Origin: Naegleria gruberi | Lineage: Eukaryota | Direction: 5' to 3' (one strand) | Assembly: GCA_000004985.1 (NCBI GenBank) | Contig: GG738853.1 | Length of the DNA: 64,000 nt | Shown: positions 24,122 through 59,059 of the stretch, one piece after another | Layout of the letters: every line of letters begins with the position of its first letter | Position numbering within the stretch: position 1 is the stretch's first letter | Made by a program: the position numbers and the translations under genes | The notes under the pieces: generated by a model | The model's database searches: none | Told to the model about the DNA's origin: nothing | What the model saw: the letters and a program-made list of their open reading frames with translations, nothing else

Positions 24122-25423
24122 ATGAACACTCATTTCAATGATCTTTCCATTGTTTTTGATCAATCATCATCGGAATGTTTTCATTCAATTGACAATAATC
24201 AATTATTATCATCACCATCCACCACCAACTATGAAATGTTAAAAATCAAGATGAAACAAACAAAATATGAAACATTGGAAAATCAAGTAACAAATCTCTT
24301 TGAACAAAAAGAAATTGTCAAACAATTTTGGAAATTGGAAAGAGAATTTAAATATCTATCTCCCAAGGTACCCAATTATCGATCAATTTTATTACAGGTC
24401 ATTAATAGAAGTTCTGGAATGGTATTACAATATGCAACTAATGAATTGAAGAATGATATTCAGGTGGTGACAAGTGCCTTTATGAAAACTGCTCGTTCTA
24501 TTCAATTTGTTTCGAATAAGTATATTGTAATGAAACTTATAAAAGGGACAAGCTATGCTCCACACCGTTTACAATATTTAAGTGAAGAAATGGCAAGAGA
24601 TGATGAAATTATTCTTGCACTTATTTCACTTTCAAAAATTGGAACTGAAAAATTTATTGAACAACTAAAATTGGATTTTCACACAAATTTCAGAATTAAT
24701 CCAAATGTAATAATGAAATGTTTTTTACAATGCCATTGGATGATTAAATTTGCAGATGAATCACTAAGGGACAATGAAGAATTCATGCTAAAGGCAATGG
24801 AAACCTATCCTAAAACATTATACTACATTTCAGATAGATTGAAACTAAACAAGTCATTTATTCTCAAAGCTGTTAACACAAATGGAAGAGTTTATAATTT
24901 TCTTTCTCCTGAATTTCAAAATGATACTGAAATTATTTCAACAGCTGTGAAACGAAATGGATTTATTTTTGCCTCAATACCAAGAAAATTTCACTCCAAT
25001 AAGGAAATTTTATTGAGTGCCTTCATTGATGGATGTGACAGATATAATGGAAACAATTTTTACACAGTCAATGGTCAATATCGATTCATTTTTAAACAAG
25101 TTCCAAAGGCACTGAAAAGCGATAGAGAACTTGCATTGTCACTTGTTCAAAGATTTGGATATTCTATTTATTATTTGAGCAGAGATTTGATTAATGACAG
25201 AGAAATTGTGTTAAAAGCCATTGAAAATTGTTATTTCTCTATTATGGTAGTTTACAAACATATCTTTGTGTATAGAGATGATGAAATTATGAAATTGGCA
25301 GCAAGACAATATCAACCATCGTCATCATTATCACTACAACTTGATAGGAAATTAAGACGAGAAATTGAGGATGAAAAATATTCTAAACGATCTTCATTTT
25401 CATGGAACAAGTATCAGTACTAA
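24122..25423 (+). CDS. DUF4116-repeat protein
   Basis: 433-aa ORF. It carries repeated ~35-aa units of the DUF4116 type (LQYATNELKNDIQVVTSA, LKAVNTNGRVYNFLSPEFQNDTEIISTAVKRNG, LSRDLINDREIVLKAIEN). Confidence 0.7.
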   Translation: MNTHFNDLSIVFDQSSSECFHSIDNNQLLSSPSTTNYEMLKIKMKQTKYETLENQVTNLFEQKEIVKQFWKLEREFKYLSPKVPNYRSILLQVINRSSGMVLQYATNELKNDIQVVTSAFMKTARSIQFVSNKYIVMKLIKGTSYAPHRLQYLSEEMARDDEIILALISLSKIGTEKFIEQLKLDFHTNFRINPNVIMKCFLQCHWMIKFADESLRDNEEFMLKAMETYPKTLYYISDRLKLNKSFILKAVNTNGRVYNFLSPEFQNDTEIISTAVKRNGFIFASIPRKFHSNKEILLSAFIDGCDRYNGNNFYTVNGQYRFIFKQVPKALKSDRELALSLVQRFGYSIYYLSRDLINDREIVLKAIENCYFSIMVVYKHIFVYRDDEIMKLAARQYQPSSSLSLQLDRKLRREIEDEKYSKRSSFSWNKYQY

Positions 25424-29432: not shown

Positions 29433-30250
29433 GAATTATTGAAAAATATAATTGAGGATTCTAAATGAGAGCGAGCTGTTGTTTACAAGATGTGATGTTG
29501 TGAAACTAAAAGAGTAAAGTTTATTGACATTAAGCCAACATTATTATTACATACTTTGTTGATCTACCATCAGTTGCAAATTGTAAAAAATCGTAGTGGA
29601 AAATAGTCTGCAGAAACACAAAAAAAAACGAACGTACGAATATATTGATGAACATTCTTACAACACCATCAGTAACGTGGAGATAAATAATAGTTTAAAC
29701 ACCAAACATAAGAAGGGCAATAAGTAAACAACTGGTGGTCCAAAACACCCATTTTTTTATCTGACTAAAGGGGAGATGGATGCAATTAGTAAAGCTGTGG
29801 ATAGTGAAAAGCAGAAGTTGTATCAACAAACAACATTTTAAAATGTAACAACGATAGAAGGATCCACAAGTTTATCAATCATTAAAAGAAATCATCCAAA
29901 TCTCTGTCCTCCCTTTCTTGTTCTTAATCACTATTTTTTTACAAACGAGTTTAGTCTAGACTGCAAAAACCAGACTGCCAATTGGTCACAAAACATTTAA
30001 CAGTATTCTCTCATGAAATTCGAATACATGAATTAAATGAAATGGTTCAGAAAGATATGAATGAAATGATTGATAATGAGAATACTTTGGAAAGCTGAGT
30101 TGATATTTGAATAGTAAATTGAATCAGTTTTCTATCCAAATTTGGAACCTTACATCCAACTATTTTCAGCTTGTCCCAAATGAAAAACAATTCGAAATGG
30201 TTTAAATTAGCACCATCTGGTTGAACTATCCAATCCAACAAAAACAAAAA

Positions 30251-31222
30251 ATGAAAGCAAATCTAATCTTTTCAATTGCAATTCTACTCTTGCTTGCAAT
30301 CCTCTCAGTTCAAGCAAGTGATAGCTATCAAACTAAACCTCCAGTTGTCGTAGTTGACAAGTATCACAAGCCAAAGGTTTGTAAGAGAAAATGCTTAAAG
30401 CATAAGTGGATTAAGAAGTGTTTGAAACATAAACTCGTTGGTCAAAAGAAGGTCTGTGATCAATATGCAATTGTCGGTGCTGGCAAATGTCTCAAACATA
30501 AGAAATATTCCAAATGTGACAAGTACAGTAAGCCAACAAAGAAGTGTGTCTTGCATGCATACAAGATTGTTGGATGTGCCAAGAAGAAGTACTGGAAAGT
30601 TTGCGATTCTTATGGAACTAAGAAGATTTGCATCAAGAAGGGTTTCAAGAAGTTCTGTGCCAAGTACAAGATTATCAACAAGTGTTTCAAGAAGGGTTTC
30701 AAGAAGGTCTGTAAGAAATTCAAGAAGGTTCCAATCAAGAAGTGTGAAAAGAAGAAGATCTGTGACAAGTACACTGTTGATTCTTACAATAAGAAGGTTG
30801 CCAAATGTAGATATGTTAAAAAGTGCAAGATTGTCTCCTGGGCAAAGAAATGTGCCAAGTATAAGAAGGTTAAATACTGTAAGGAAAGAAAATCTTTCAA
30901 GAAGTGTTGTCTCATTAAGAAGAAATTCTTCTGTGCCAAGCATAAGACCATCAAGTTCTGTAAACACAAGAAGACTCTCTCCAAATGTGTCAAATATAAC
31001 AAGAAGAAGTATTGTGCCAAGTCAATTGTCATTCCACCAAGATGTATCAAGAAGAAGTATTATAAGAAGTGTGTGAAACGTTCAAAGGGAAAGAAGATTT
31101 GTAAGAAATTCAAATTAGTTGGTGGAAAGAAGAAGTGTTGCAAGTCAATTAAGAAGAAGATTTGTATCAAGAGAAAGACATGTAAGAAGCCAACAAAACC
31201 AATCGTCAAACCATCCTTGTAA
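30251..31222 (+). CDS. secreted, extremely basic Lys/Cys-rich repeat protein (323 aa)
   Basis: The ATG at 30251 gives MKANLIFSIAILLLLAILSVQA, which is signal-peptide-like. About 300 aa follow, built from K-rich spacers between Cys residues (KCLKHK, KKGFKKFCAKYK, KKGFKKVCKKFKK...). My hand count is ~108 Lys and 32 Cys, with very few D/E. All other frames are open only because of the AAG/CTT bias. Confidence 0.7.
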   Translation: MKANLIFSIAILLLLAILSVQASDSYQTKPPVVVVDKYHKPKVCKRKCLKHKWIKKCLKHKLVGQKKVCDQYAIVGAGKCLKHKKYSKCDKYSKPTKKCVLHAYKIVGCAKKKYWKVCDSYGTKKICIKKGFKKFCAKYKIINKCFKKGFKKVCKKFKKVPIKKCEKKKICDKYTVDSYNKKVAKCRYVKKCKIVSWAKKCAKYKKVKYCKERKSFKKCCLIKKKFFCAKHKTIKFCKHKKTLSKCVKYNKKKYCAKSIVIPPRCIKKKYYKKCVKRSKGKKICKKFKLVGGKKKCCKSIKKKICIKRKTCKKPTKPIVKPSL

Positions 31223-31312
31223 AATAGTTGACAAATTTTTCTCTAATTACCTGTAAAATAACAAGAGAATTAATAAAGTATTGAACTTTAACAAAATTCA
31301 ATGCAAAATATC

Positions 31313-31384
31313 CTCCCATGCCGGGAATTGAACCCGGACCTCCTGGGTGAAAGCCAGGTATCCTAGCCATTGGACTACACGGGA
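31313..31384 (-). tRNA. tRNA-Glu (UUC)
   Basis: The reverse complement is TCCCGTGTAGTCCAATGGCTAGGATACCTGGCTTTCACCCAGGAGGTCCGGGTTCAATTCCCGGCATGGGAG. The cloverleaf is canonical at 72 nt, and a TTTT run lies ~8 nt downstream. Confidence 0.92.
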
Positions 31385-31837
31385 TCTCATTCATGATGAA
31401 AACATTCCCATTTCATAGATAAAACACACAAATTGACCATAATCTGTTGGCACTTGCAGTGAACAACCACTCCCAGTTGCCATCAAGACTGGTTGTAGTT
31501 TCCACTTGATTTTAAATCTTGTTCTCTTAGTATTTACGTTGTACATCGGAGCCTTCATACACGCTCTTTATGTTATTTTAATGAAGGATTAAATAAATTG
31601 ATTTTATTAACATCTAGACTTGTCCCTAGTTGTAAAATGATATACGAGTTAGGCATAGGGCAAGGTTGTGAACATTGTTATGTCCGTGATGATTCGGTCC
31701 TTTTTATTAGATCCGTCATCAAAATAACCATGTCAATAACCATCTTTTTGACATGTTCAAGTTGTTGGTTGGTTACAAACACACACTCATTTAGTCAGTT
31801 TTCAGCAATCAATGAAAAACTATCATCTTTAAAAAAA

Positions 31838-34800
31838 ATGAAAGATAATACTTGGTTCACAACAAGTCTTATCATTCAACTCTTTATATTGTTATTAATA
31901 TGTGTCAGTAGTAGTGATGTAATAACATCAGTCAATGGTCAAACAATTCAAGATGATATTTATATTGTTCCAATTCCAAAAGTAGTAACACCTGAATATG
32001 GATCACTTTCATTAACCCCACAAGTTTATTATTTTAATTCATCATATTCATCCAGTTCATTACAATATTTATATTCCATGTCAGATGGTTCAACATTGAA
32101 AAGTGGCATGTCATTCACATCAAATGGTTTATTTACATTTTATCCAAATCCATCACAAATTGGTCAATTTAATATATTAAGAAATGTATCATATTATAAT
32201 AGTGATAACAAGTTTACAATAATTTCACACACCATTACAATTCAAGTAATTTCATCACCTTCCAATAATGGTAATCAATTACAATTATTATTTTCAGATA
32301 ATTTCACATTTAATTTATCAAATTGGAATTTAATTGATGGAACAATGAAATTACAATCAAATCAATTAAATTTATTCCAAAATAATACAATTTTAACAAG
32401 TGTTAAATATTTTGATATTTTTAATAATAATAATAATGGTTTAACTTTTACTTTTAATTTATTAACTTCATGGACTTCTACAAGAGGTATATTACTATAT
32501 ATAGATAAATTGAATTATTATGAAATTAATTTATCAAATTCACCTTTAACTATTAAACGTTATTTAAATGGTGAATTAACAATTGTATTACAAAGTACTA
32601 AATTATTACAAGTTCATACTTCAAATTATTATTCAAGTTATAAATTATTTTTACAATTTACTAAAAATGGAATTTTAATCAATTTGGCTAAAATTGGAAC
32701 ATTATCAAGTGATTATTATTTAAATGTAATTGATAATTTTACTAATATGGAATTATTTAAAAATATTAAATTTGGATTTTTTGATAAAAGTGCATCTTCA
32801 CCAACTGTGTCCACTTTTAAAGTTTTACAATTTCAAGTTTTTAATGGAAAATTAATTCACACCAGACAAGCACAAACTTATCATGTTGATGCAACTAATG
32901 GAAATGATTTAAATGATGGGTTAACAAAATCAACTGCTTTAAAAACATTAAATACAGCTCAATATCAATTATTACCTGATGATACTTTACTAGTTTATGA
33001 TTCTATTTATAGAGAAAGTTTCCAAATTAATAGAGAAGCATCAATTTATCATCCAATTACAATTAAAGCAGTTAATCAACCAACTACTACAACTACCACA
33101 TTTACAACAACACCATATACTCATACATCAATTATTGATGGTTCACTTGTATTAGATAATTCTAAATTAACTAAAATTAGTAATAGTAACATTTATCAAA
33201 CCTATATTAAATTTACACCAGATGTAGTTTATTTAAATGGTGTGAAAATGAGTTTAGCAATGAAACCACTTCCAGCTGATTTACAAGATGAATATTTTAC
33301 AGATAATTATATTCATCCATTAAATAATTCAAAATTTCATCTGATAATTTATTAATTTATTTAAAATTAGATGAAATGTTTAAATATGATTCATTTGGTA
33401 ATAGAGTTTCAGATAATTATTGGAATGGTGCTGATTTATATCATTATTATTATGGAGCTAATATTGTTTTCACACGTAGAATTTTATCTTACAATGCATC
33501 AACCAATACTATTGGAATGGAATATAGAGATTCTATATGGGGACAATTAATTATTTCAACAAGTGATTTCTATGCTATTGGTAATCATGTTGGTTGTTTT
33601 TCACAAGCTAATCAATATGTTTCCTCTAATAATCAAATATCAGTTTCATTGAGTAGTGATCCATATTATATTCAATCTAATTCTCTATTATTAGAAGTAT
33701 CATCTCTCTCGAATGGTATTAAATTTACAAATGGAATGGAAGGTATTAGAGTTCAAGGATTAATGATTAGAAAATTCACAAGTGATGGAATTCAATGTTC
33801 TTCTCAATGTAATAATATTGTTCAACTAAATATAATGGTGGATCAGGTGTCAGTTTCACATCCTCTCAAAACATACTCATTGATGGAGGTGAACATTCAC
33901 AAAATTTCAATAATGGAATTAATTTTGGAGGTGGAATGAAAGATTCAACTATTGAAAATTCCTACGTTCATGAAAATGTCAATAATGGTATTTGGGTAGG
34001 TAATGGTGGTTCCAATCTATTCTATTGTTGGAATATTCTATTAAAATCTAATAAGGTTGGACCACATTTTAGTCAACGTCTCCATCCAGATAATATTCAA
34101 TTAGCTAGTTCACATAATGTAACATTAGATTCTAATATTCTCATTCAATCAGGTGGTGATCAAAATATGTGGATGGAACAAAATGGTCTCGTCACATTTA
34201 AAAGAAATATTTTCATTAATGGACCACTTGGTTTAAATCATGCATTGAATTTAGTATTAATTAATAATATATTTTATCAATCATGGATGAGATATTCATT
34301 TAAATTTGAAAATTATGTTACTTATAGTTCACTTGTTGGTTTACAAAGTGTTTTAGATTGGAATCAAATGTTTAATAGTTTAAATAGTAGTACTACTACC
34401 ATTAATGGAAATGATTTACCTAATATACTTGTTTGGAAAGATTTAAATTTACAAATATCAAATAGAATTAAATCATATTCATCTTTTAATTTATTAACTA
34501 ATTCAGATAAAAATGATTTAATTAATCATTTAAATAATATTATTAATAATACTTTATTTATGAAAGAACATAAAGATTTAGTATTACCTTTATTAGGAAA
34601 ATCAAATGTTGCATATCCATATTGGACTGCAATTACTAAACGTGGATTATTAGATAATTCAACAGGTCAATTCAATTTAATGACAAGTGACATTTCAATC
34701 ATTGAAGAAGTTAGAGGTTTAACACGTGCTATTTTAGATGAATTAGTTTTTGATGGAATTTTATCAAAATCTTTAATGACATTTTATCCAAGAATTGTTT

Positions 34801-35336
34801 CAATTAAGAATAATGCATTTATTAATTCAAATTTACAATTACCAAATTCATCTTATAGTTTATTACCATATTGGGATTCAGATTTTAATTATATTGAACA
34901 AGGAACACCTTATCATGCAAATATTTGGAAAACATTGACTGGACCTAATACTATATTTGAAACATCATTGACCAATACTACTTTCTATTTTAAGAATATG
35001 ACATTGTATGATTTCCATTTAAATTGTAATAATCAAAATATTTCATTAATTGATAGAGGAATTAATGTTGGTGAATTTTATAATGATAAAGCACCTGACA
35101 TTGGTGCCTATGAATCTAATTGTAATAATAATAATTTAAATCCACAACCATCATCAACAACAAAACCTTCAACATCTGTAAATTCACCACAACCATCAAA
35201 ATCACCACAACCAAATAATTCAAAAATTGTTTCACTTGGTTCATCAATTAATGTTGGAGGAGGTATTGGTAGTGGTTTAATATTGATTGGATGGATAATG
35301 GTGATGATGGTTGTTGTACTCAACACAATGTTTTAA
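31838..35336 (+). CDS. large secreted/membrane-anchored right-handed parallel beta-helix protein; reading frame interrupted twice
   Basis: The start reads MKDNTWFTTSLIIQLFILLLICVSS, a signal-like sequence. The mid-region has the bacterial-style entry motif YHVDATNGNDLNDGLTKSTALKTLNTAQ...DTLLVYDSIYRESFQI. Beta-helix turns follow (NGGSGVSFTSSQNILIDGG..NNGINFGGGMKDSTIENSYVHENVNNGIWVGNGG), then a P/S-rich stalk and a C-terminal TM segment. The frame changes within 33328..33355 and within 33816..33835, with no GT-AG intron available at either site. Confidence 0.6.
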
Positions 35337-37353: not shown

Positions 37354-40300
37354 ATGCAAACAAACGAAGGCTCGGGATCAGAAATGTCTTCTTCCTCATC
37401 ATCAACATCATCCGCTGCCCAACAACAACTGCAGCAACAAGAACAACAATATAACGAACAAGGTGAAGATTTTCCTTCTCTTTTTATTCGTGCTGCTTCC
37501 TTCTCCTCTTCATCAGAGTCTGACGACATAATTCCTAATCATCAACAACATACCACCCAACCAATCAAAACATATGAATCCAAGATTAATTATGAACATC
37601 AAATGGTAATTGATAATGAAGAATCGGAATTAAACTTATCGCCAAGGAGAAGTTCTAGAAAGAAAACGCCAAAAAAACAATTCAGTCCAACCCACAAAGA
37701 GCAATCTGATAAAAAAACTACACCTTCTAAAATACAGATTCCACCATCACCAATACAATCACAAGTTATTCAACATGATTATCCATTTGGAGAACCTTGG
37801 ACACAAGAAGAACTTTCAACTTTTTTAGAAGGGTTCAACAAGTATAAAACTGATTGGGGTATGATCAAACCACTTTTACCAAGTAGAAGTGTTTCTATGA
37901 TTAATTCACTTTACGAAACTCACAAAAGATTTATTGAAGCAGACTGTGGTTTAGATGTGAAAAAATTACAATTTCATGATATTCACTTGGATTACATATC
38001 ATTCAAACAACAACAAATGATTCCATCTCCTCAACCACAACAATTCCAACAACTTCCACCACAACCTATTCCACCAAGAGCAAAGAATTCTGCTAGAAAA
38101 CGTTTGCAAGATGAATTTGATGCCATCTCATCACCTAAGAAGAAAGGTTCACCAAGACAACGTTTTTCAAAAACCTCTAAAATAATACCTACCACCAGTA
38201 ATTCAAATACCCTAATTCCAAACTTTAAAAGAAAACAAAAAATAATAATGGAACAATTACCACTTGAAGTAATTGAATCATTCCAATCAGATTCAGATAC
38301 TGTAACATTAACAAGCTCTCAAAGTTCTCTTTCTGTTTCAAATACTGAAAGTCAACCAACTTCACCACCTCCACCACAATCCCTTCAATCTCCATTATCA
38401 CCAACAAGTGATCTTTCCTCTTTCACAGCAGCTATTGGAATGTTATCACCTGATAGTAAAAAGAATTATGAAAAGAACAAAATGTTACCAATCAAACTAA
38501 GAAAGAAGGGTACTCACGGTAATCCTTTGCTAAAATATATTCAAATTGCTAATGGAGATCAAAATGATACAGAATTGTTAGAATCAGCTCAAAATGCTGG
38601 AATGAAAATTGTAAAAATACTATCAAGAAAGAAAACAAGAACATTTTGCTCAAGTGAATGGTTTTACCCAACGATAGACTTTGGATTTTTCGAAAAGAAT
38701 GAATTTTTGGAATGCTTATCTTGCTTGGATGAACCATATAGAAATAGAAAATCCTTTAAAAAATCAGAACTTAAAGGTTTAAGAGCAGAAATGTGTAAAA
38801 AGTTTGGTAAACCAAGAAGATTTTCTCAAGCTTATTTAAAACAAGAAAGAGCCAAGCTGGAAATGAATAGAAGTTTTGCTAGAGAATACTATCAAAAGTT
38901 TAAACAAGTATATCAACTCTCTCAAGATAATCAACCATTTGTTCCTCCTCCAGTCATTATGGACTACCCACTTGTATCTGAACTTCAATTTATTGAAAGA
39001 TTGGCTGCTCCATTTAAAAAGAACGATCAAGTTTTGGTTTTAAATCCAGAAACCCAACATGTACAACTTGCTACAATAATGGATGATATTCCTCATTCAA
39101 AAACAGATTATAGAGTTAAATTTTTATACACTAAAGAGGAACGTATAGTCCAAGATACAGAAATTATGCAATTAGGAACTGTTTCAGTATTACCAGTTCA
39201 AAGAAGAGTACCAGAAATGTTCAGACCTGTCATTCAAGATGGAATTCTCCCACCACAAACTCCACCAAGAAAAAGCAATTATAGTTTCCTCTCAGGTGAT
39301 AATAATTTGAACAATAGTATGTTATCTGCATCCTCACCACATTCCCCATTCTTTTCGAATAATCATCCAATTTTCCAAAGTCCTCCGTCATCAGCCAATG
39401 ATATTCATGATAATGGGGCTTCATTACAAACCCCAACAAAGAAACAAAAACTGGATGGTGGGTTAATGTCACCAAGTAATATATTTGCAAGTCCAAATAT
39501 GGAGAGTCATGAATTTTCTAATCCATTATCCTCTCCACAACACGGATTTGCTCAAAATCAACCACCTCCAGTTATGGCTACTGGTATTGTTGATCTTTCA
39601 AATCCATCTCAAGAAGTTGTTAGAAATATTTCCAAATGCATATTTTTATTAAGAAAGAAACATGAACACATGGTATTATTTAAAAATTTGAATGAAAAGG
39701 CGAGACATGCCATGATGAAACACTCTTTAGCTATGGCCTCATCTAATACATCAGAAGAAGGATCAAGCTCTTCTGTGACTCCAATAATATTTCAAAAATC
39801 ATTCTGTATTGAATATACCAAATTGGTACTTGATTTGAGTAAGATTAATAATGAATTGGAAGTTTTATTACCTCAAGTTAGAAGCTACAGTTCAACTCCA
39901 AATTATGCAACAACTAATTATCCTATCCATAGTATTTTTTCTCAATCAATCACAAAACAATCAACTTTCCTTTTCCAAAAACAAACAAATGGACCAGCAA
40001 GACAACAAATGTGTCAAGATATATTTGAGTCAAATAGAAATCATGCTAAAGATATTGTAAATTGTGTAATGGCTCAATTATTAACACAACTTCCATCCAC
40101 TACCTCTGAAAATGGTAAAACACTTTCATCAAATGTTATACAAACATGTCATGGAAAGATTGGAGATTGTATTGCTTTACTATTGCATTTAAGAGCTTGT
40201 AGTATTAATCTTGGTATTTTAGAAAATAATGATATTGATCTAATGCTTGATGCTGGTTTAATGGCATTGAAAGAACCAAATCAATCTGATGAAATATCTC

Positions 40301-40356
40301 AATATATTACTTTCATCAAGGATACTTTCTTGAGGACAAGAAATGATGAACAATAA
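37354..40356 (+). CDS. LIN9: LIN-9 / ALWAYS EARLY family protein (SANT/Myb-like + DIRP domain; MuvB/DREAM core subunit)
   Basis: A SANT-like segment reads EPWTQEELSTFLEGFNKYKTDWGMI...MINSLYETHKRF. A DIRP-like segment reads SSEWFYPTIDFGFFEKNEFLECL...LKGLRAEMCKKFGKPRRFSQAYLKQERAKLE. The flanks are long and low-complexity. Confidence 0.72.
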   Translation: MQTNEGSGSEMSSSSSSTSSAAQQQLQQQEQQYNEQGEDFPSLFIRAASFSSSSESDDIIPNHQQHTTQPIKTYESKINYEHQMVIDNEESELNLSPRRSSRKKTPKKQFSPTHKEQSDKKTTPSKIQIPPSPIQSQVIQHDYPFGEPWTQEELSTFLEGFNKYKTDWGMIKPLLPSRSVSMINSLYETHKRFIEADCGLDVKKLQFHDIHLDYISFKQQQMIPSPQPQQFQQLPPQPIPPRAKNSARKRLQDEFDAISSPKKKGSPRQRFSKTSKIIPTTSNSNTLIPNFKRKQKIIMEQLPLEVIESFQSDSDTVTLTSSQSSLSVSNTESQPTSPPPPQSLQSPLSPTSDLSSFTAAIGMLSPDSKKNYEKNKMLPIKLRKKGTHGNPLLKYIQIANGDQNDTELLESAQNAGMKIVKILSRKKTRTFCSSEWFYPTIDFGFFEKNEFLECLSCLDEPYRNRKSFKKSELKGLRAEMCKKFGKPRRFSQAYLKQERAKLEMNRSFAREYYQKFKQVYQLSQDNQPFVPPPVIMDYPLVSELQFIERLAAPFKKNDQVLVLNPETQHVQLATIMDDIPHSKTDYRVKFLYTKEERIVQDTEIMQLGTVSVLPVQRRVPEMFRPVIQDGILPPQTPPRKSNYSFLSGDNNLNNSMLSASSPHSPFFSNNHPIFQSPPSSANDIHDNGASLQTPTKKQKLDGGLMSPSNIFASPNMESHEFSNPLSSPQHGFAQNQPPPVMATGIVDLSNPSQEVVRNISKCIFLLRKKHEHMVLFKNLNEKARHAMMKHSLAMASSNTSEEGSSSSVTPIIFQKSFCIEYTKLVLDLSKINNELEVLLPQVRSYSSTPNYATTNYPIHSIFSQSITKQSTFLFQKQTNGPARQQMCQDIFESNRNHAKDIVNCVMAQLLTQLPSTTSENGKTLSSNVIQTCHGKIGDCIALLLHLRACSINLGILENNDIDLMLDAGLMALKEPNQSDEISQYITFIKDTFLRTRNDEQ

Positions 40357-43110: not shown

Positions 43111-44299
43111 ATGTCTACTCCGACAATGACAGCAGAGTTTGACGATAGTCATTTAACTACGTTTAAATTTGGACAGTCTGATGCTCATATGCATGACTCA
43201 CTCGATCCTTCCCAATGGAAAATAACAGATTTTGAATTGTTAGAAATTATTGGTACTGGTACTTTTGGTAGTGTTAGATTAGTTAAACATAAACATACAC
43301 AACAATACTATGCTATGAAAATTATTAAAAAGTATGATGTAATTAGAATGAAACAAGTAGAACATATCATTAGTGAGAAGAATATTCTCTCTCAAGTTGA
43401 TCATCCTTTCATTGTTAGACTTTATAGAACATTCCAAGATGAAAATTATTTATTCATGATTATGGAATATGTGTGCGGAGGTGAATTGTTTTCACATTTG
43501 AGACGTGTTGGTAAATTCCCTAATGATGTTGCAAAGTTTTATGCTGCTGAAATTATTTTAGCTATGGAATATCTTCATATGAAGAATATTGTTTATCGTG
43601 ATTTGAAACCAGAAAATGTTTTATTAGATAATGATGGTCATGTAAAAATTACTGATTTTGGTTTTGCTAAGAAGGTTCTTGACCGTACGTGGACTTTATG
43701 TGGTACTCCTGAATATTTAGCGTAGGTTTTTATTAATCTCTTAATATTTAAATTACTCTTTAATCTCTTAATCATAATGATAATACTCTTAATCATTCTG
43801 ATAATCTAAATCATCTAATTATTTTATTATGAATAGTCCTGAAATTATTCAATCTAAGGGTCATGGTAAAGCTGTTGACTGGTGGGCATTAGGTATTCTT
43901 ATTTATGAAATGTTAGTTGGTTATCCACCATTCTTTGATGATTCACCTTTCAAAATTTATGAAAAGATTTTACAAGGAAAGGTTGAATTTCCAAGATTTA
44001 TGGATCCAATGGCTCGTGATTTAATTAAACGTCTCTTAACTACAGATAAGATGAAACGTTTGGGTAATTTGAAAGGAGGTGCTGCTGATATTAAGGAACA
44101 CAAATGGTTTAAGGGTGTTGATTGGGATGAATTATATAATAGACAAATTGCATCTCCAATTCCTGTCAAGATTAGTTTTGCAGGTGATTCTAGATACTTT
44201 GAAACTTATCCGGAATCTCAAGATCATTGTATTCACCACACTGGTACTCCACATCAACAATTATCTGCTGATGTTCAAGCTCTATTTGATGGTTTTTAA
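43111..44299 (+). CDS. cAMP-dependent protein kinase catalytic subunit (AGC kinase) (exons 43111..43721, 43837..44299)
   Basis: Kinase motifs [26 protein letters not shown] and GTPEYLA|PE are present. The donor is GC|GTAGGT at 43722 and the acceptor AG is at 43835-43836 (115-nt intron, phase 2 restoring GCT). The AGC tail has the terminal FDGF hydrophobic motif. Confidence 0.9.
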
Positions 44300-45977
44300 T
44301 TTTTATTAAATGTATGTGAGAATACTGTATATACATCAAATAAAGTTATACATATTGTCACTGTACTTTTACTAAACAAGGTTTTAAACACTTGTTTCCA
44401 TTCATTTGTAAATAATGATTGAATAGTTTTCAAATCAATAACAATGTCAATAAAACACCAAAATCTAATCCATTCACAACCCCAATCTAATTCAATTGGA
44501 ATTCTAATGACTTGTTCCCTTGTTAATGATGGTGGTGAGGTTGGTGATGGTGATTCATCATGATTTTTATCATTATTCATTGTTTCATCTCCATTTGTTG
44601 TAGCAGTAGTAGTTGAATCATTTCCATTCACCGTCATTGTATCATCATTATTTTCATTATAATAAGAATTATCAAATTCAATTGACCATCTAGATCTAAA
44701 ACCAATACTAAATAAATATAATTGTTCATAAAATTTTGAAGTCATGTAATAAAATAGAGTATTATAAAATTTTCCATACGATTGAAATAAACCTCCAACA
44801 GAATGTTCAGCAGTTGCAACTTGTAAATCAATGAAATAACGTAAAATTTTAGAAATTTGAACAAGAATATTTCTACACTTGTTAATTAAATGAATAATTC
44901 TATTCAATTTTGATAAATAATTCATATTATTAGAATTTTTATAATTATTTAAAATTCTCAATTCAGGTAAAAGTTCATTATCTAAAATAGGAGGTGGTGG
45001 TAATTCAACTTTAGAAAAAACTTCTTGTTGATCATAATATTCTTTCCATTTTTGTAAAAATACTTGTTGTGAATTTTCTGAAAAAGGAGTCCATAATAAA
45101 CCTCTTTTTGTTAAAGAAATATTAAAATCATTTAATAAATTTGATCTAATTTGTAAACTATATCCTTTTATAGAAGTAGAAATTCCATAAATTAATTTTT
45201 TAAAATTATGAAAATTCATAATTGATAAACTTAAATATAAATATCTTGCTAAATAAGGAATATAAAATTTTCTTCTTAACATTAATTTAGTAATAAAATC
45301 TTTAATTTTCATTTGATATCCAAAATTAGTAGATAATTTATATTTACCAAAAATAAAACCAATATAATTAATTAAAATTAAATATAATTTTGATTTTTCA
45401 TTAAAAGGTTTATGTAAATGTAATTTAAATATACCATATATATATTTCATATCTAAATATTTAAATAATTTTTTAAAATAATTTTTAAAATAATTTATAT
45501 TTTTTTCATTTAATTTAATTTTATATTTAAATGTTTCTCTATTTGTATAATTTTCATTTCCAATATTAGAATTAAATGTATTATAAAAGGAAGTATATTG
45601 ATTATATTCTTCTTCTTGTTCTCTTTGCATTTCTTCAATATCATCATCTTGATAATAAATATTATTTCCATCTTTGGTAATATTATATATATCATAATGA
45701 TATTCACTTCCAATTGAATATCCTATTTTTTTATCTAATTGAATAAAACTTTATATATTTTATAATAATATTTAAAAATTATATTTAATTAATATTAAAA
45801 TTATATTTAATTAATATTATATTTAAATTAAAAAAAAACATACTTTATAGGTATTTGTAAATTATGAGTAGGATAACATCTCATTGAAATATCAAATGTA
45901 GCATATTCTAAATCCCATGGATGTGTATCTTCATAAGAATCCCAATTTAATGATGCATTTAATTTATATATTTCCAT
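44296..45977 (-). CDS. very AT-rich protein of unknown function (exons 45977..45844, 45748..44296)
   Basis: Exon 1 (MEIYKLNASLNWDSYEDTHPWDLEYATFDISMRCYPTHNLQIPI) ends at AA|GTATGT (donor at 45843). The acceptor AG is at 45750-45749. The phase-2 join (AAT) continues FIQLDKKIGYSIG...EEMQREQ into ORF 44296..45630. The intron is 95 nt. I recognise no family. Confidence 0.5.
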
Positions 45978-46411
45978 TTTTTAATATTATTATTAATATT
46001 AATATATTATTATATTATTATTAGTATGTTATCAATTAGTTATATTGTTGAATTATGTTATTATATTGTTTGTTACATGAATTCCGAGAGTATGATCATT
46101 ATTTGTTGTTGTTGTTGTTGTTGTTGTAAATATAACAATAGAAGTGATGTTATTTTTTTCACGTATTAATGAAGGCTTGTTTCTAATTCAACATTATTAT
46201 CATCATAATAAAGTTTCAATGAATAATTTAAAGAAGAAATAAACATTGGAATTCAAATGTCCAAGTCTAGACTTGAGAATAATTGAATGGCCATTAGAAA
46301 GAATTTTCATGACATTATTCCCGCCATAAATTAAATCTACAGTTGTTTTATTCAAATATTAAAAAAAAAGTGTAAATAATTGAGGAGGGAAATTTTAAGA
46401 AAATAATAATA

Positions 46412-46687
46412 ATGGACAATCAAGTGTTGTATTCAGCAGAACAAATTCAAATTCCCAATGATTTAGGAGAAGTTCTTAAACAATATACAAAGGATGCTAT
46501 CAGAGCCTCACCAGCTGATTTGATCCGATGGAGTGCAAAGTAAGTATTATTATTCCATATAATCAATAATTTAGCCTTCCTTACATGAAACAGTTATTTT
46601 GCAACCAAGACTAATAAACCACTTCCATTCCCTAATGTTCCTCTCACTAACACTACCCCTACTAGTACTACTGCTCAAAGTAAATAA
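46412..46687 (+). CDS. small RIIa (PKA-RII dimerisation/docking)-domain protein; 3' exon structure unresolved
   Basis: Exon 1 (46412..46540) reads MDNQVLYSAEQIQIPNDLGEVLKQYTKDAIRASPADLIRWSAK, followed by GTAAGT. This matches the RIIa pattern IPxxLxxLLxxxTxxxxRxxPxDLxxFxxxYF. With the AG at 46592-46593, a canonical phase-0 join gives only LFCNQD then stop (46614). The attractive continuation YFATKTNKPLPFPNV... (to 46687) is offset by 1 nt. Confidence 0.5.
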
Positions 46688-46880
46688 TAGAAATATTAAT
46701 AGCAAAATGACGTTTGTTGCCAACTCACACAATGTAAATATCTCGAAAACATCTTCCTAATAATATATCATTGCCCAACAATGCATATTGTTCAATACAG
46801 CAAATAACTGTAATTGTCTTGCAAAACACGTATTGGTGATTTCATCATTCAATTTGAAAATAAAAATAGCAAACAAAAAA

Positions 46881-48453
46881 ATGAAAATATTTAAACTTTT
46901 AATTGTATTATTATTTTTGATTTCATCAATAGTACTTGTTGCTAATTGTTCAGATGCTACTTCAACTGCTGGTAGTGAAAATATAGAAATTAAAAGTAAA
47001 TTAAATGATCAACAAAATACATATACACAAGATTCATTATTGGGAAATGGTATTTTAACTGGAATTAAAAAGGATGGAACAATTGATAGTATTATTGCTC
47101 AATATAAACAATTAGATAATGAATATATTAAATCTAATAATATTGATAATGGTGATGAAAAGAAGGAAGATATTACAATTGAAAATCCATCAGTAACAAC
47201 TCCTACAACACCTACTACTACACCAACAACAACAACACCACCTATTGATATTACAACACCATCATTACCTAGTACTGTTAATAATCCAATTGATGAAAAA
47301 CCAAAAGATATTGAATTGCCACCATTGGAAGAAAAGAAATCATCAACTGAATCATCAAAACCAACAGTTGATACTCCAACAACAACAACAAAAACAACAA
47401 CAACTACTACTACAACTCCATTACAAGATAAACCTGGAAAGGAAGAAGAATCAGCTGCTGAACAAAAATTGAGAGAAGAAATTAGTAAACTTAAGGCTAA
47501 ACTTGAAGAAATTCAAAAGAAGGAACAAGAAAAGTCAACACCAACAGCACCAATTGAAAAACAAAATAAGCCTATTACAATTGAAAATCCATCACCAGTA
47601 ATAACTCCTACAACAACAACAACTCAACCAAAGGCTGAAAAATCAATTGAAACTACTAAACCATCTACAACTACTACTACTACACCTTCTAAACCATCTA
47701 CAACTACAACTACAACTATTCCATCTAAAATTGATAATAAGAGTAGTACTCCAAGTAAACAGACAACATCATCTACTACTAGTAAAACATCGACAACAAC
47801 AACAACTCCTAATACTACTACTAACAAATCAACAACAACAACTACACCAACAAACAAACAATCATCATCTACTACTAGTAGCAGTTCATCATCAACAAGT
47901 AAATCATCTTCCAAATCAAAGAATAAGTCTACAACAAGTAGTACAACAAGTAAGAATAAGACTAAACCATCAAGTACTTCTCCAACTACCAACAACAAAC
48001 AATCATCATCTGCTAGTACTACTTCTACAACTCCGACAACAAAAACTCCAACAACAACAACAACTCCAAGTAACAAACAATCATACTACCACTGGTTCTA
48101 CTACTACTACTTCCAATACTAATAAACCAAGTAGTACTACTTCTACAACAACAACTCCAAGTAACAAACAACCAATTCAACCTAATAAGAATACAGTTGT
48201 ACGTCCAACACTTAAAGAAGAAGAAGAAAAGAATAATGGAATATCACAAGTATTTATATTTGGATTTGGTATAATTCTATTTTTAGTAATTATTGCAATT
48301 TTCTTTTTATTTATGAGAAAGAGAAAACCAACATTAAAATATGAACCAGTTTCACAATATGAAAATGATTCAATTCAAAATAATGATAATTCCATTGTTG
48401 AATTAGATGATAAACATAAAGTAATTAATGAACCTGTTGATTTGGAAATTTAA
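46881..48453 (+). CDS. mucin-like Thr/Ser/Pro-rich type I membrane protein; apparent +1 frame change near 48084
   Basis: A signal peptide (MKIFKLLIVLLFLISSIVLVANC) is followed by long T/S/P tracts. The Thr-rich reading switches from the frame of ORF 46788..48122 to that of ORF 47647..48453 around CAATCAT|ACTACC. The latter ORF supplies a TM segment (VFIFGFGIILFLVIIAIFFLF) and a cytoplasmic tail. Confidence 0.6.
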
Positions 48454-48846
48454 ATAAATTCAAATATTATATATTACAATTATTATGTTATGTGTGTGTA
48501 TTTATTATTATTATAAAGTATTATTAATGGAGTGTGTGTATATTACAGTTAATCTAATATCAATGATTCAATCAAATAATTACATAAAAAAATTAACAAT
48601 AAAAAAAATGTCCAATCAACATGATTCCGATTCCAATTCATCATCATCATCATCTAAACAACAATTACATCATGATTCAAATAATTCAAATAATTCAAAT
48701 AATTCAAATAATATAATACAAATAATAATAATTCAAATATAAAAAAAACAAGATTTGAACGTGAAATTGAATCATTAACAAAACAAACGATTGAATTAGA
48801 AAATGTAGAAAATAAATTAAAACAATTATTTCCACAAGAATATGCA

Positions 48847-49299
48847 ATGAATAATTCAAACAAATTTGAAAATGATCAAATATTAAGACATCAAGATCCA
48901 ACTGTTAAATATTTTACTTTAATTGGAGGTTCAATTGGTGCAATTTCAAGTGCTTATTTACTTTATCAACCAATTGATAAATTTGGAAGATTATTTTTTA
49001 AACAATTTACTTCAAATTATAGAATTAGATATTATTTTACAATTCCAACTTTTACTTTTTTAACAATTACTATAAGTGGTATTTTATCAGGTTTATATCC
49101 ATATGGTACACATAGAATTATGAAATTTTTAAATAATCAATTTAATATTGATGTTAATGATAATTTTGATGATTTTTTAATTTCTGGTTTACCTTTAACT
49201 AAAAATGATTTACTTTCTCATTTAAATAAATTTAATAATAATAATAATAATAAATTAATTATTAATAATTTAATTATAATAAAATTAAAATTAAATTAA
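48847..49299 (+). CDS. small membrane protein, unknown function; may extend 5' to ATG 48608 across a frame change at 48712..48742
   Basis: ORF 48847..49299 has two or three hydrophobic segments. Its frame stays open upstream to 48712 (YNTNNNNSNIKKTRFEREIESLTKQTIELENVENKLKQLFPQEYAM). There it abuts ORF 48485..48742 (MSNQHDSDSNSSS... from 48608) in another frame. Confidence 0.45.
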   Translation: MNNSNKFENDQILRHQDPTVKYFTLIGGSIGAISSAYLLYQPIDKFGRLFFKQFTSNYRIRYYFTIPTFTFLTITISGILSGLYPYGTHRIMKFLNNQFNIDVNDNFDDFLISGLPLTKNDLLSHLNKFNNNNNNKLIINNLIIIKLKLN

Positions 49300-49319
49300 T
49301 ATTATGTTTAAAATTATTT

Positions 49320-50420
49320 TTATTTATTTAAATTAATATATTTAACATTTAATTCAATACCATTATTACTTTGATTTCTAAAAATGGAATTAAAATTATC
49401 ATTTTTTAAATTATTTGAATAATCAAATGCAATTCCCATACTTTCAGTACTAAAAGTATAACCAAATTCTAATTGATCATAATCAGTAACTTTACATGAT
49501 AAACATCCAATTTTTCTTTCATTTGTAAAATTAATTAAATTACCATAAATAGAAAATAAAGCTTGTTCCATTGGAATTTCAAATATTTTATCAACTAGAT
49601 AATTTGACATTTGATTTAACATGATATCTTCACCAATTCCACTAAAATTACTTGCAATTTGTATAAAATTATCATTATCACTATCTTGTACATATTTAGT
49701 ATCTGAATAACATCCACTTCCATATATAGAAGCTTCACCAATTCTACCTGAATATTTTAATGATATTCCACCACTACTAACACCTGATGATAATATTCCA
49801 TTATAATATATTATACATCCAACTGTATCATATNNNNNNNNNNNNNNNNNNNNNNNNNNNNNNNNNNNNNNNNNNNNNNNNNNATTATTTAAATTATTTA
49901 TATTATTATTACCATTTATATTATTATTATTAAAATTATAAATAGATGAAAAACATAAACATGCATCACATTCAACTAAACCATTTCTATTTAAATTACT
50001 ACCATATCCAGCATTTGTAAATGGTGAATTTTCTAAAATAGAAATAGCATATGAACATGCATTTAAACATTTTTTTATTTTTTCATTTTCATCATTTTTA
50101 TTTATAAATTTACTATTATTTAAATTATTTAAATTATTAAAATATTGATTAATAGTTTGTTGTATAGATTGTTTCATTAAATTTCTATATAAATTATTAT
50201 TATTAATAGAATGATATCCTGCTCCACAATGAACTGCAATAAAATATACATCATCTTCATCTTCATCATCTTTTAAATCATTATTTAAATCATTATTTAA
50301 ATTATTATATTCTATTATTTCATTATTATTATTATTATCTTGTTGTTGTTGAATAGATAAAGATGATGATGATGAATTATTCCGATCAACATGTTGATGA
50401 TGATTAACTTGTTCACTCAT
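49320..50420 (-). CDS. TASP1: taspase-1 / asparaginase-2 family Ntn-hydrolase (interrupted by an assembly gap)
   Basis: FIAVHCGAGYHS, NAGYGSNLNRNGLVECDA and YDTVGCIIYYNGILSSGVSSGGISLKYSGRIGEASIYGSGCY match the family. This includes the DTVG autoprocessing/nucleophile Thr motif. The likely start is MSEQVNHHQH at 50420. N-rich insertions are present. Confidence 0.75.
   Translation of the reverse strand: MSEQVNHHQHVDRNNSSSSSLSIQQQQDNNNNNEIIEYNNLNNDLNNDLKDDEDEDDVYFIAVHCGAGYHSINNNNLYRNLMKQSIQQTINQYFNNLNNLNNSKFINKNDENEKIKKCLNACSYAISILENSPFTNAGYGSNLNRNGLVECDACLCFSSIYNFNNNNINGNNNINNLNNXXXXXXXXXXXXXXXXXYDTVGCIIYYNGILSSGVSSGGISLKYSGRIGEASIYGSGCYSDTKYVQDSDNDNFIQIASNFSGIGEDIMLNQMSNYLVDKIFEIPMEQALFSIYGNLINFTNERKIGCLSCKVTDYDQLEFGYTFSTESMGIAFDYSNNLKNDNFNSIFRNQSNNGIELNVKYINLNK
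49834..49883. other. assembly gap (50 N)
   Basis: A run of exactly 50 n characters lies inside the taspase-like CDS. Confidence 0.99.
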
Positions 50421-50582
50421 TTTTTTAAAGTTTATAATAGAAAAAAACAAATTGTAACACACAACTATTTCAAATTTAATTTTATTACATTTTCAATACA
50501 TACAATACTTTTAATACATATGATTCAGATTACAAAATATATAAATAAATATATAAACACATAATAATAAATATATAAAATA

Positions 50583-58447: not shown

Positions 58448-58497
58448 TTCAGTGCATTTTTTTAAAAAAATCTTTACAATAAAATTATTTTTTATTA

Positions 58498-59004
58498 TCA
58501 TAATATTATCATCAATATTATCATTAACATATTATTATTATTAGATATAATATTATTATTATTTTCAATATTAATAGTAAAATCATCATGATAATAAGGA
58601 CCAAATAAATCTCTAAATAAAGCATATGAACATAATTTAGTAGTATAATATGTTTTTAAATAAAAATTAGATAATGGTAATGATATTTGATAAAATAAAA
58701 ATCCAAATGTTAATCCAGTTGATATTTGTGTTAGAGTATTAATATATTTATTAGATATCTTTTTAAATGATTTTTGAAATATAAATAAAGATGAAAATGT
58801 TCCGATTATTGAAAATGGATATTTAATTAATGTTGAATATCCATCTTGTGGTATTTTAATCATTAATGATGTTAAATAGGCTCTTTTTGTATATTTATAT
58901 TTACTATTATTATTATTATTATTATTATTGGATGATGATGATGGTATTGTTGTTGTTATTGATGATGATTTGAGTTGTTGTTGTGTAGTTGAATTATTTT
59001 CCAT
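58498..59004 (-). CDS. small hydrophobic protein, unknown function (could instead belong to the neighbouring gene model)
   Basis: 168-aa ORF with an N/S-rich N-terminus and two or three hydrophobic segments. It lies 55 bp downstream of the PDE stop and 50 bp upstream of the PQ-loop ATG. Confidence 0.35.
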   Translation of the reverse strand: MENNSTTQQQLKSSSITTTIPSSSSNNNNNNNNSKYKYTKRAYLTSLMIKIPQDGYSTLIKYPFSIIGTFSSLFIFQKSFKKISNKYINTLTQISTGLTFGFLFYQISLPLSNFYLKTYYTTKLCSYALFRDLFGPYYHDDFTINIENNNNIISNNNNMLMIILMIIL

Positions 59005-59059
59005 TTTTTATTATTGAATTATGAAAAGATAAATTGATTGTGTGTGTTTATTATTTATA

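What the first reader, a model, noticed from the sequence alone, without database searches (positions are those of the whole stretch)
31838..35336. Bacterial-style parallel beta-helix surface protein gene broken by two frame changes
The ~1150-aa product has a eukaryotic signal peptide and a C-terminal TM anchor. Its core looks like bacterial right-handed beta-helix (pectate-lyase-fold) proteins, with the entry motif Y-HVDATNGNDLNDG-T...A..T...A followed by repeated NG-I turns. That makes it a candidate for ancient horizontal acquisition. The frame shifts within 33328..33355 (CAAAATTT context) and within 33816..33835 (CTAAATATAA context). No GT-AG intron is available at either site. The gene is therefore either a decaying pseudogene or carries homopolymer indel errors.
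Basis: partly seen in the sequence, partly recalled or inferred. Interest (0 to 1): 0.5.

Follow-up and report, generated by a model that had tools for sequence, protein, structure and literature searches.

The report
Recently broken bacterial-derived beta-helix surface gene
This is a Naegleria gruberi gene for a secreted, membrane-anchored beta-helix protein whose family most likely came from bacteria before Naegleria and Willaertia split; this copy carries two small, very recent frame-breaking deletions that the public annotation hides behind three invented introns.

Summary
Window 31838..35336 (+) is one roughly 1165-codon gene read in three frames, with breaks at about 33331-33337 and 33816-33831. 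The window is Naegleria gruberi NEG-M. The public protein for this locus (P0001, "predicted protein", 1093 aa) is reproduced exactly by removing three "introns" of 119, 38 and 60 nt, and all three delete conserved coding sequence.

An intact paralogue (P0002, about 65% identity) runs collinearly through both breaks. Break 1 is a net -1 loss at an A4T3 run in a loop of variable length. Break 2 is a 13-nt deficit in a beta-helix rung whose length is constant in 18 of the 19 other aligned family members (the 19th lacks this region), so it is not a homopolymer miscall.

All three segments keep zero stops, GC3 of 8-12%, 40 of 41 family-conserved residues and no rate acceleration. The breaks are therefore very recent: a young pseudogene or null allele is most likely, and assembly error is less likely.

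The horizontal-transfer idea is supported. The only eukaryotic relatives identified are in Naegleria gruberi and Willaertia magna (one clade, 100% bootstrap). The nearest other relatives are full-length collinear bacterial proteins (Phycisphaerae MAG, 32% identity, E 2e-107), mostly encoded in exopolysaccharide loci. It is ordinary as a pseudogene and modestly interesting as a horizontal-transfer family.

The parts
31838..33334 (+). Coding segment 1 (frame 2), residues 1-499. Contains the signal peptide (31838..~31915), an Ig-like domain, a ConA-like jelly roll (from ~32285), the beta-helix entry motif YHVDATNGNDLNDG (32879..32920) and the first rungs.
   Evidence: 68% identical to P0002. GC3 0.084, no stops.
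33331..33337 (+). Break 1: A4T3 run where frame 2 changes to frame 1 (net -1). The locus is 4 nt shorter than the paralogue here, in a loop whose length varies across the family.
33353..33355 (+). Premature TAA reached in frame 2 if the sequence is translated as it stands. The product would be about 505 aa and lack most of the beta-helix.
33334..33822 (+). Coding segment 2 (frame 1), residues 500-662: middle beta-helix rungs.
   Evidence: 61% identical to P0002. GC3 0.092, no stops.
33816..33831 (+). Break 2: frame 1 changes to frame 0. There are 20 nt between Cys TGT (33808-10) and Tyr TAT (33831-33), where 18 of the 19 other aligned family members have 11 codons (P0008 lacks this region). 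That is a 13-nt deletion removing part of a beta-helix strand (P0002 ~646-650).
   Evidence: In one search the query is contiguous at residues 648/649 while the subject HSPs overlap by 13 nt.
33825..35336 (+). Coding segment 3 (frame 0) including the stop codon, residues 663-1165. Contains the conserved NNGIW (33975..34001), HPDN.Q (34077..34100) and QNMW (34155..34172) motifs, a helical insert, the C-terminal DFHL...APDIGAYE module (to 35114), a Ser/Pro-rich stalk and a hydrophobic tail (35265..35321).
33252..33370 (+). Spurious 119-nt 'intron' of the public gene model (5' GTTTAGCAAT). It deletes 39 codons that are conserved in the paralogue.
33809..33846 (+). Spurious 38-nt 'intron' of the public gene model, bridging break 2.
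33996..34055 (+). Spurious in-frame 60-nt 'intron' of the public model. It deletes GNGGSNLFYCWNILLKSNKV, which is conserved in eukaryotic and bacterial relatives.

Best explanation
The locus is one of at least four Naegleria gruberi copies of a surface-protein family confined, as far as I could identify, to Heterolobosea.

Architecture: signal peptide, Ig-like domain, ConA-like lectin domain, right-handed parallel beta-helix, helical insert, C-terminal 'DIGAYE' module, Ser/Pro stalk and C-terminal hydrophobic anchor (TM or GPI signal).

Origin: the family's ancestor was probably acquired from bacteria before Naegleria and Willaertia diverged. In bacteria the collinear homologues are encoded inside Wzx/Wzy-type exopolysaccharide loci. 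This points to an extracellular glycan-binding or glycan-processing role (inferred).

This copy: it was functional until very recently and now carries two real frame-disrupting deletions. One is a 1-nt loss in an A4T3 run. The other is a 13-nt loss inside a beta-helix strand, compatible with slippage between two ATTGTT microhomologies.

As written, translation stops at 33353-55 after about 505 aa, without the conserved groove motifs. The copy is therefore a young pseudogene, or a null allele captured in the reference haplotype. The public protein (1093 aa) is an annotation artefact that bridges the breaks with false introns.
For: Shown:
- Collinear alignment with the intact paralogue through both breaks.
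- A 13-nt deficit where 18 of the 19 other aligned members, eukaryotic and bacterial, share one spacing; the 19th (P0008) lacks this region. The site lies in a high-confidence strand of the model.
- The public model is reproduced exactly by removing 119-, 38- and 60-nt segments of conserved coding sequence.
- NEG-M was Sanger-sequenced (PMC9928731, Table 1).

Recency:
- No stops in 666 downstream codons, against a nonsense target of 126 site-equivalents. This gives a 95% upper bound of 0.024 neutral substitutions per site since break 1.
- GC3 of 8-12% in each segment's own frame.
- Window-specific and P0002-specific replacements are equal in every segment.
- 40 of 41 family-conserved residues are kept.

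Family and origin:
- Exhaustive phmmer search with names.
- NJ tree with 100% support for the Heterolobosea clade and for its grouping with the full-length bacterial set.
- Phycisphaerae MAG contig of 245 kb.
- Bacterial gene neighbourhoods.
- Eukaryotic neighbours in the window: PFK, a DIRP/Myb protein, Gryzun-like and a tRNA-Glu.

Fold.
Against: - No reads, transcripts or second N. gruberi assembly could be consulted. An assembly or consensus error cannot be excluded, especially for break 1.
- The complete absence of other decay is also what two sequence errors in a live gene would look like.
- The 13-nt event could be a 12-nt real in-frame deletion plus a 1-nt error.
- The ATTGTT microhomology is reconstructed from paralogue residues and codon bias.
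- The function is inferred only from fold and bacterial gene context.
Confidence: 0.62

Rival explanations
1. The gene is intact in the organism. Both frame changes are errors of the reference assembly (a miscalled base in A4T3 and a local consensus or assembly deletion), so the true product is a functional protein of about 1170 aa.
For: - All three segments are perfectly open, with strong codon bias, no rate acceleration and conserved motifs.
- Break 1 lies in a short homopolymer pair.
- At least two other N. gruberi family loci also have odd gene models. This could reflect general assembly or annotation trouble in this AT-rich family.
Against: - The genome was Sanger-sequenced.
- Loss of 13 nt is not a typical base-calling error.
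- Two independent errors within 500 nt of one gene would be needed.
- JGI's modellers needed three artificial introns, not two.
Confidence: 0.28
2. The public gene model is right. Naegleria splices out 33252..33370, 33809..33846 and 33996..34055 and makes the 1093-aa protein.
For: All three segments have GT..AG ends, and removing them restores one frame that matches the database protein exactly.
Against: - The removed segments encode residues conserved in the paralogue. For the second and third segments the residues are conserved in bacterial relatives too.
- The removed segments show the same coding GC3 bias as the rest of the gene.
- One 'intron' is only 38 nt and another is in-frame with no stop.
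- The splice would excise strands of the beta-helix core.
Confidence: 0.04
3. Two programmed -1 ribosomal frameshifts (or transcript-level slippage) restore the full-length protein.
For: Both shifts go in the same direction (-1), and the downstream frames are intact.
Against: - There is no X XXY YYZ slippery heptamer in the zero frame at either site (direct reading).
- The paralogue and 17 of the 18 other aligned homologues encode these regions in a single frame (P0008 lacks the break-2 region).
- At break 2, 13 nt of conserved rung are simply missing.
Confidence: 0.01

Closest known systems
N. gruberi paralogue P0002 ('predicted protein', 1130 aa) and the public model of this locus, P0001 (1093 aa)
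   Same: P0002 has the same domain order from signal peptide to C-terminal hydrophobic tail. It is about 65% identical and is the sister of the window gene with 100% bootstrap.
   Different: P0002 reads in a single frame through both break sites. P0001 is this locus with 72 conserved residues removed by false introns.
Bacterial 'right-handed parallel beta-helix repeat-containing protein' MBE0535468.1 (Phycisphaerae MAG49) and its metagenomic relatives P0007, P0010, P0012, P0013, P0014
   Same: Collinear over roughly 900 residues: Ig-like, ConA-like, beta-helix, helical insert and the C-terminal DFHL..DIGxxE module. Identity is 28-34% and E-values run from 1e-71 to 1e-125. They share the invariant NNGIW, HPDN.Q, QNMW and NN..R motifs.
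   Different: The bacterial proteins end in LamG, Ig or other modules instead of a Ser/Pro stalk plus hydrophobic tail. They are encoded in Wzx/Wzy/EpsI exopolysaccharide loci.
Beta-helix carbohydrate-active enzymes of known structure: BT_1002 glycoside hydrolase (5MQP), XylC (3VST), Klebsiella K1 capsule lyase (7W1C), and the GH110, GH87 and GH136 families
   Same: [quoted passage not shown] Foldseek E-values are 1e-13 to 1e-6 against the model of the paralogue.
   Different: Only 7-12% sequence identity. There is no sequence-level hit to any PDB chain. Catalytic residues were not compared, so neither the enzyme class nor activity itself is established.
Pectate lyases (PL9 Pel9A-like PF22842; PelN NF041899)
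   Same: The N-terminal cap and entry region (YxVD..G.D.N.G) resembles them. PelN scores 33.5 bits on P0002 residues 336-436. PF22842 is precomputed on the bacterial relatives.
   Different: The score is far below the equivalog cut-off (33.5 vs 740). PF22842 was not detected on the Naegleria proteins.

Membership tests
Right-handed parallel beta-helix (Pfam PF13229, pectin-lyase fold) | Profile match at or above the Pfam gathering score | tested here: inconclusive
   The stitched window protein scores 16.9 bits against a cut-off of 25.9. Paralogue P0002 scores 25.9, equal to the cut-off. 18 of 20 aligned family members match, with a best E-value of 2e-30.
Right-handed parallel beta-helix (Pfam PF13229, pectin-lyase fold) | Three-dimensional beta-helix of stacked rungs | tested here: met
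   The AF2 model of P0002 (pLDDT 82.5, pTM 0.79) shows repeated short strands over residues 340-810. Foldseek matches beta-helix hydrolases and lyases, with a top E-value of 1.2e-13. The result is transferred to the window gene by about 65% identity.
Pectate lyase (PelN equivalog NF041899) | Score above the curated equivalog cut-off | tested here: not met
   33.5 bits against a cut-off of 740. Only the cap region (residues 336-436) matches.
Pectate lyase (PelN equivalog NF041899) | Ca2+-binding acidic cluster and catalytic Arg/Lys base | not tested
   No residue-level superposition was made.
Heterolobosean/bacterial Ig-ConA-beta-helix-DIGAYE family (unnamed) | Collinear full-length alignment and retention of the family's conserved residues | tested here: met
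   The window gene keeps 40 of 41 invariant or near-invariant residues.
Pseudogene (unitary, non-processed) | Frame disruption inside conserved coding sequence | tested here: met
   There are two net -1 lesions. A premature TAA falls at 33353-55.
Pseudogene (unitary, non-processed) | Relaxed constraint (extra stops, accelerated or unbiased substitution) | tested here: not met
   There are no further stops. Lineage-specific changes are equal between the window gene and P0002. GC3 bias is kept. If the lesions are real, they are very young.
Pseudogene (unitary, non-processed) | Lesions confirmed by independent reads; no full-length transcript | not testable with these tools
   No N. gruberi reads, ESTs or second assembly could be reached. 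Exact-product look-ups found nothing.
Bacterium-to-eukaryote horizontal gene transfer | Nearest non-self relatives are bacterial; eukaryotic distribution is narrow | tested here: met
   Of the 31 representatives with E<1e-30, every eukaryotic one identified is N. gruberi or Willaertia magna. The rest are Phycisphaerae or metagenomic proteins in bacterial gene contexts. N. fowleri, N. lovaniensis and N. clarki could not be checked explicitly.
Bacterium-to-eukaryote horizontal gene transfer | Phylogeny: a monophyletic eukaryotic clade branching among bacterial sequences | tested here: met
   NJ tree, 806 columns, 200 bootstraps. Heterolobosea has 100% support, and it groups with the full-length bacterial set at 100% against more distant outgroups presumed bacterial (unnamed metagenomic proteins). 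This is a distance method only and the root is assumed.
Bacterium-to-eukaryote horizontal gene transfer | Not contamination: integrated in the host chromosome with host-like features | tested here: met
   The gene is flanked by PFK, a DIRP/Myb protein, Gryzun-like and a tRNA-Glu. It has 24-26% GC with extreme AT3, a eukaryote-type signal peptide and anchor, and copies in two genera.
Secreted, membrane-anchored surface protein | N-terminal signal peptide and C-terminal anchor | tested here: inconclusive
   Kyte-Doolittle analysis finds only two hydrophobic windows, residues 4-33 and 1139-1165. The tail ends 4 residues before the stop. No dedicated signal-peptide or GPI predictor was available.

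The most novel reading that the evidence does not exclude
A whole multi-domain, exopolysaccharide-locus beta-helix protein of unknown activity was transferred from a bacterium (the only named close relative is from a Phycisphaerae MAG, Planctomycetota) into the common ancestor of Naegleria and Willaertia. There it gained a eukaryotic signal peptide and a stalk plus anchor, and it now evolves by birth and death as a cell-surface glycan-processing family. This locus would be a copy caught within about 2% neutral divergence of its inactivation.
Probability: 0.5. Interest if true: 0.4.

Novelty: new member of a known kind. Interest (0 to 1): 0.3.

Why it matters
- It corrects a public gene model. 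The database protein for this locus lacks 72 conserved residues and hides two frame breaks, so anyone using it for comparative or structural work is misled.
- It adds a well-delimited bacterium-to-Heterolobosea transfer: a complete collinear architecture found in two genera, followed by lineage-specific duplications.
- It flags an uncharacterised bacterial beta-helix family that is a recurrent component of Wzx/Wzy/EpsI exopolysaccharide loci.
- None of this changes a general principle. Young pseudogenes and bacterial carbohydrate-enzyme transfers into phagotrophic protists are both common.

Tried and rejected
- Word-indexed protein searches. The full stitched protein returned only P0001 and P0002. 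A full-length family alignment added only two distant hits, P0158 and P0159. A clean core alignment returned nothing. Low-complexity words probably swamped the candidate lists, so these gave no taxonomic survey.
- Exact-product look-ups of P0001, P0002 and the window ORFs, hoping for independent assemblies or the paralogue's DNA. None is on record. dN/dS and direct reconstruction of the deleted 13 nt were therefore impossible.
- GTDB genome scan. An alignment mixing eukaryotes and bacteria had no usable conserved stretch. The bacterial-only alignment recovered only the Phycisphaerae MAG.
- Scans of JGI metagenomes for close relatives and of viral contigs for a possible giant-virus intermediate. 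Neither found anything.
- Sequence search of the PDB found no hit.
- Literature searches. No paper was found describing this family in Naegleria. The trypanosomatid DGF-1 beta-helix 'rib' family was considered, but its authors report no match in N. gruberi.
- Programmed frameshifting was rejected for lack of slippery sites and because sequence is missing at break 2.
Full report
**What is there**

The window is AT-rich eukaryotic DNA. Between 31838 and 35336 on the + strand lie three abutting ORFs:
- 31838..33355 in frame 2
- 33376..33939 in frame 1
- 33936..35336 in frame 0

Reading across the joins gives one continuous protein of about 1165 residues. A database search identified the organism and the locus. 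A Naegleria gruberi "predicted protein" of 1093 aa (P0001) is identical to the stitched product except for three internal gaps. A second N. gruberi protein of 1130 aa (P0002) is about 65% identical over its full length.

tblastn of the intact paralogue P0002 against the window gives exactly three HSPs:
- 31838-33331 in frame 2
- 33337-33831 in frame 1
- 33819-35234 in frame 3

They cover query residues 1-488, 492-648 and 649-1107. At this base composition, the chance that the three segments stay open by accident is 1.5e-20, 3e-7 and 1e-20. The wrong frames of the same segments hold 8 to 79 stops each. GC3 is 8-12% in each segment's own frame. The frame changes are therefore real features of this sequence, located inside a genuine coding region.

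**The public annotation**

Removing 33252..33370 (119 nt), 33809..33846 (38 nt) and 33996..34055 (60 nt) and translating reproduces P0001 exactly.

They are still not credible introns:
- They delete 39, about 12 and 20 codons that align residue for residue with the paralogue. The second and third also align with bacterial relatives.
- One is only 38 nt long.
- One is in-frame and contains no stop.

They are devices of the gene modeller to obtain an open frame.

**Nature of the two lesions**

Break 1 lies in TCAAAATTTCATC (33331-33337). Relative to P0002 the locus is 4 nt short, which is one codon plus one base. The site is a loop whose length varies across the family. A single-base loss in A4 or T3 explains it.

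Break 2 is different:
- In the family alignment, every other member with this region has the same spacing, C-x4-(I/V)-x-N-x5-N-G. That is 18 of the other 19 aligned sequences, from Naegleria, Willaertia and bacteria. The exception, P0008, lacks the region.
- The window has 20 nt where these members have 33, which is a 13-nt deficit.
- tblastn shows the same thing independently. Query residues 648 and 649 are contiguous while the two subject HSPs overlap by 13 nt.
- In the structural model of the paralogue, the missing residues belong to a high-confidence strand of a beta-helix rung (E642-647 and E650-652).

Given the gene's extreme AT3 codon usage, the paralogue-like ancestor ...I-V-I-S-N-C-S... 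would read ATTGTT-ATTTCTA-ATTGTT. Loss of one repeat plus the spacer is exactly 13 nt and yields the observed AATATTGTTCAACT. This microhomology model is an inference, because the paralogue's DNA was not obtainable.

A 13-nt loss is not a homopolymer miscall, and the NEG-M reference was Sanger-sequenced (PMC9928731, Table 1).

**How old are the lesions?**

Several measures agree that they are young:
- Downstream of break 1 there are 666 codons with no stop, although 126 site-equivalents could mutate to a stop. This puts a 95% upper bound of about 0.024 neutral substitutions per site on the time since inactivation.
- With any of six outgroups, the count of window-specific replacements is no higher than the count of P0002-specific ones in all three segments. 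With the Phycisphaerae outgroup, for example, it is 50 against 54.
- The window gene keeps 40 of the 41 invariant or near-invariant family residues. 32 of the 41 lie downstream of break 1.

So the gene was under normal constraint for essentially all of its history. Either the lesions are very young (a new pseudogene, or a null allele in the haplotype that was assembled), or they are not in the organism at all.

I weight real lesions at about 0.6 and assembly error at about 0.3. The reasons for favouring real lesions are the 13-nt event, the sequencing chemistry and the need for two independent errors. Only reads can settle this.

**What the protein is**

Pfam finds the right-handed beta-helix family. 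P0002 scores exactly at the threshold (25.9 bits). The stitched product scores below it (16.9 bits). 18 of 20 aligned relatives match clearly.

An AlphaFold model of P0002, built on a 20-sequence family alignment (pLDDT 82.5, pTM 0.79), shows these parts in order:
- an N-terminal signal helix
- an Ig-like sandwich
- a ConA-like jelly roll (about residues 140-330)
- a long beta-helix (about 340-810)
- a helical insert (about 820-960)
- a small C-terminal module ending in the APDIGxYE motif
- a disordered Ser/Pro-rich stalk
- a terminal hydrophobic helix

Foldseek matches the helix to beta-helix glycoside hydrolases and polysaccharide lyases: BT_1002 (5MQP) at E 1e-13, XylC, the Klebsiella K1 capsule lyase, and members of GH110, GH87 and GH136. 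It matches the jelly roll to legume lectins.

Only two hydrophobic windows exist, one at each end. The protein ends 4 residues after the second. A GPI-attachment signal is therefore at least as likely as a transmembrane anchor; this is an inference.

**Origin**

An exhaustive phmmer search with P0002 found 353 relatives, 31 of them at E<1e-30. Look-ups of these gave the following:
- Four Willaertia magna proteins (about 34-37% identity, full length) plus one W. magna fragment.
- Three further N. gruberi gene models.
- Proteins of bacterial or metagenomic origin that are collinear over about 900 residues. One of these, P0009, shares a 90% cluster with MBE0535468.1 from a Phycisphaerae MAG on a 245-kb contig (32% identity, E 2e-107).

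The five gene neighbourhoods examined for the collinear relatives are typically bacterial. Four are Wzx/Wzy-type polysaccharide loci, three of them with EpsI. The fifth sits beside a GH78 rhamnosidase and Dus.

A neighbour-joining tree (806 columns, 200 bootstraps) gives 100% support for each of these groupings:
- Naegleria + Willaertia as one clade.
- Each genus as monophyletic, meaning independent duplications in each.
- The window gene and P0002 as sisters.
- The eukaryotic clade together with the full-length bacterial set, against more distant outgroups presumed bacterial (unnamed metagenomic proteins).

In the window the gene sits among ordinary eukaryotic genes: phosphofructokinase, a DIRP/Myb protein, a Gryzun-like protein and a tRNA-Glu. 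Its codon usage is extremely AT-biased. Contamination is therefore excluded.

Three caveats apply:
- The tree is distance-based and its root is assumed.
- I could not explicitly search N. fowleri, N. lovaniensis, N. clarki or other eukaryotes.
- The direction of transfer is inferred from breadth of distribution.

**Mechanism**

Shown:
- The intact family members are secreted, anchored, multi-domain proteins with a lectin-like domain and a beta-helix.
- The helix carries invariant polar motifs (NNGIW, HPDN.Q, QNMW, NN..R) shared with bacterial proteins encoded in exopolysaccharide loci.

Inferred:
- They bind or process an extracellular glycan at the amoeba's surface.
- As written, the window copy would produce a secreted fragment of about 505 aa with the Ig and ConA domains and a few rungs. 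It would lack the conserved groove and the anchor, so it is a null for the family's function.

**Verdict**

- Break 2 is a 13-nt deletion.
- The lesions are very recent.
- The annotation hides them with false introns.
- The closest named bacterial relative is a Phycisphaerae (Planctomycetota) protein, and most collinear relatives lie in exopolysaccharide loci.
- The transfer predates the Naegleria-Willaertia split.

As biology it is a new example of two familiar things, so interest is modest.

Noticed in passing
not in window (N. gruberi XP_002674965/NAEGRDRAFT_69936, XP_002674964/NAEGRDRAFT_69935, XP_002669211/NAEGRDRAFT_75844): Other N. gruberi copies of the family also have damaged-looking gene models. 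Two adjacent models (528 aa and 277 aa) together cover one family gene with a gap between them. A third (1877 aa) lacks the beta-helix rungs at about 612-830 and is fused to about 800 unrelated residues. Only P0002 looks intact, which suggests birth-and-death turnover or systematic mis-annotation.
   Followed up: partly
L002, L004/L005, L006, L007 (bacterial contigs): The full-length bacterial homologues are recurrent members of Wzx/Wzy polysaccharide biosynthesis loci. Neighbours include a flippase, Wzy, glycosyltransferases, hexapeptide acyltransferases, DegT aminotransferase and sulfotransferase with APS kinase. EpsI is adjacent in three of the five loci. This beta-helix family appears to be uncharacterised.
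   Followed up: partly
window 31313..31384 (-): A tRNA-Glu (anticodon TTC) lies about 450 nt upstream of the gene's start codon. The minus-strand ORF 31206..31394 is just the translation of this tRNA.
   Followed up: yes
window 30221..31222 (+): This ORF encodes a 333-aa, extremely Lys/Cys-rich repetitive product (CxKxK-type repeats) with a hydrophobic N-terminus. It has no Pfam match.
   Followed up: partly
window 31838..35336 vs neighbours: The gene's GC3 (8-12%) is about half that of neighbouring genes (19-25%). Its overall GC (24-26%) is below the local 30-36%. The cause is unknown; it could be low expression or family-specific bias.
   Followed up: no
window 44000..52000 and 58000..64000: These are long stretches of very low GC (0.18-0.22), some with strong negative GC skew (to -0.27 at 48-50 kb). 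They were not examined.
   Followed up: no
window 37354..40356 (+), 24122..25423 (+): The neighbouring ORFs encode a DIRP/Myb (LIN-9-like) protein and a protein with five DUF4116 repeats. These are ordinary eukaryotic genes that confirm the chromosomal context.
   Followed up: yes
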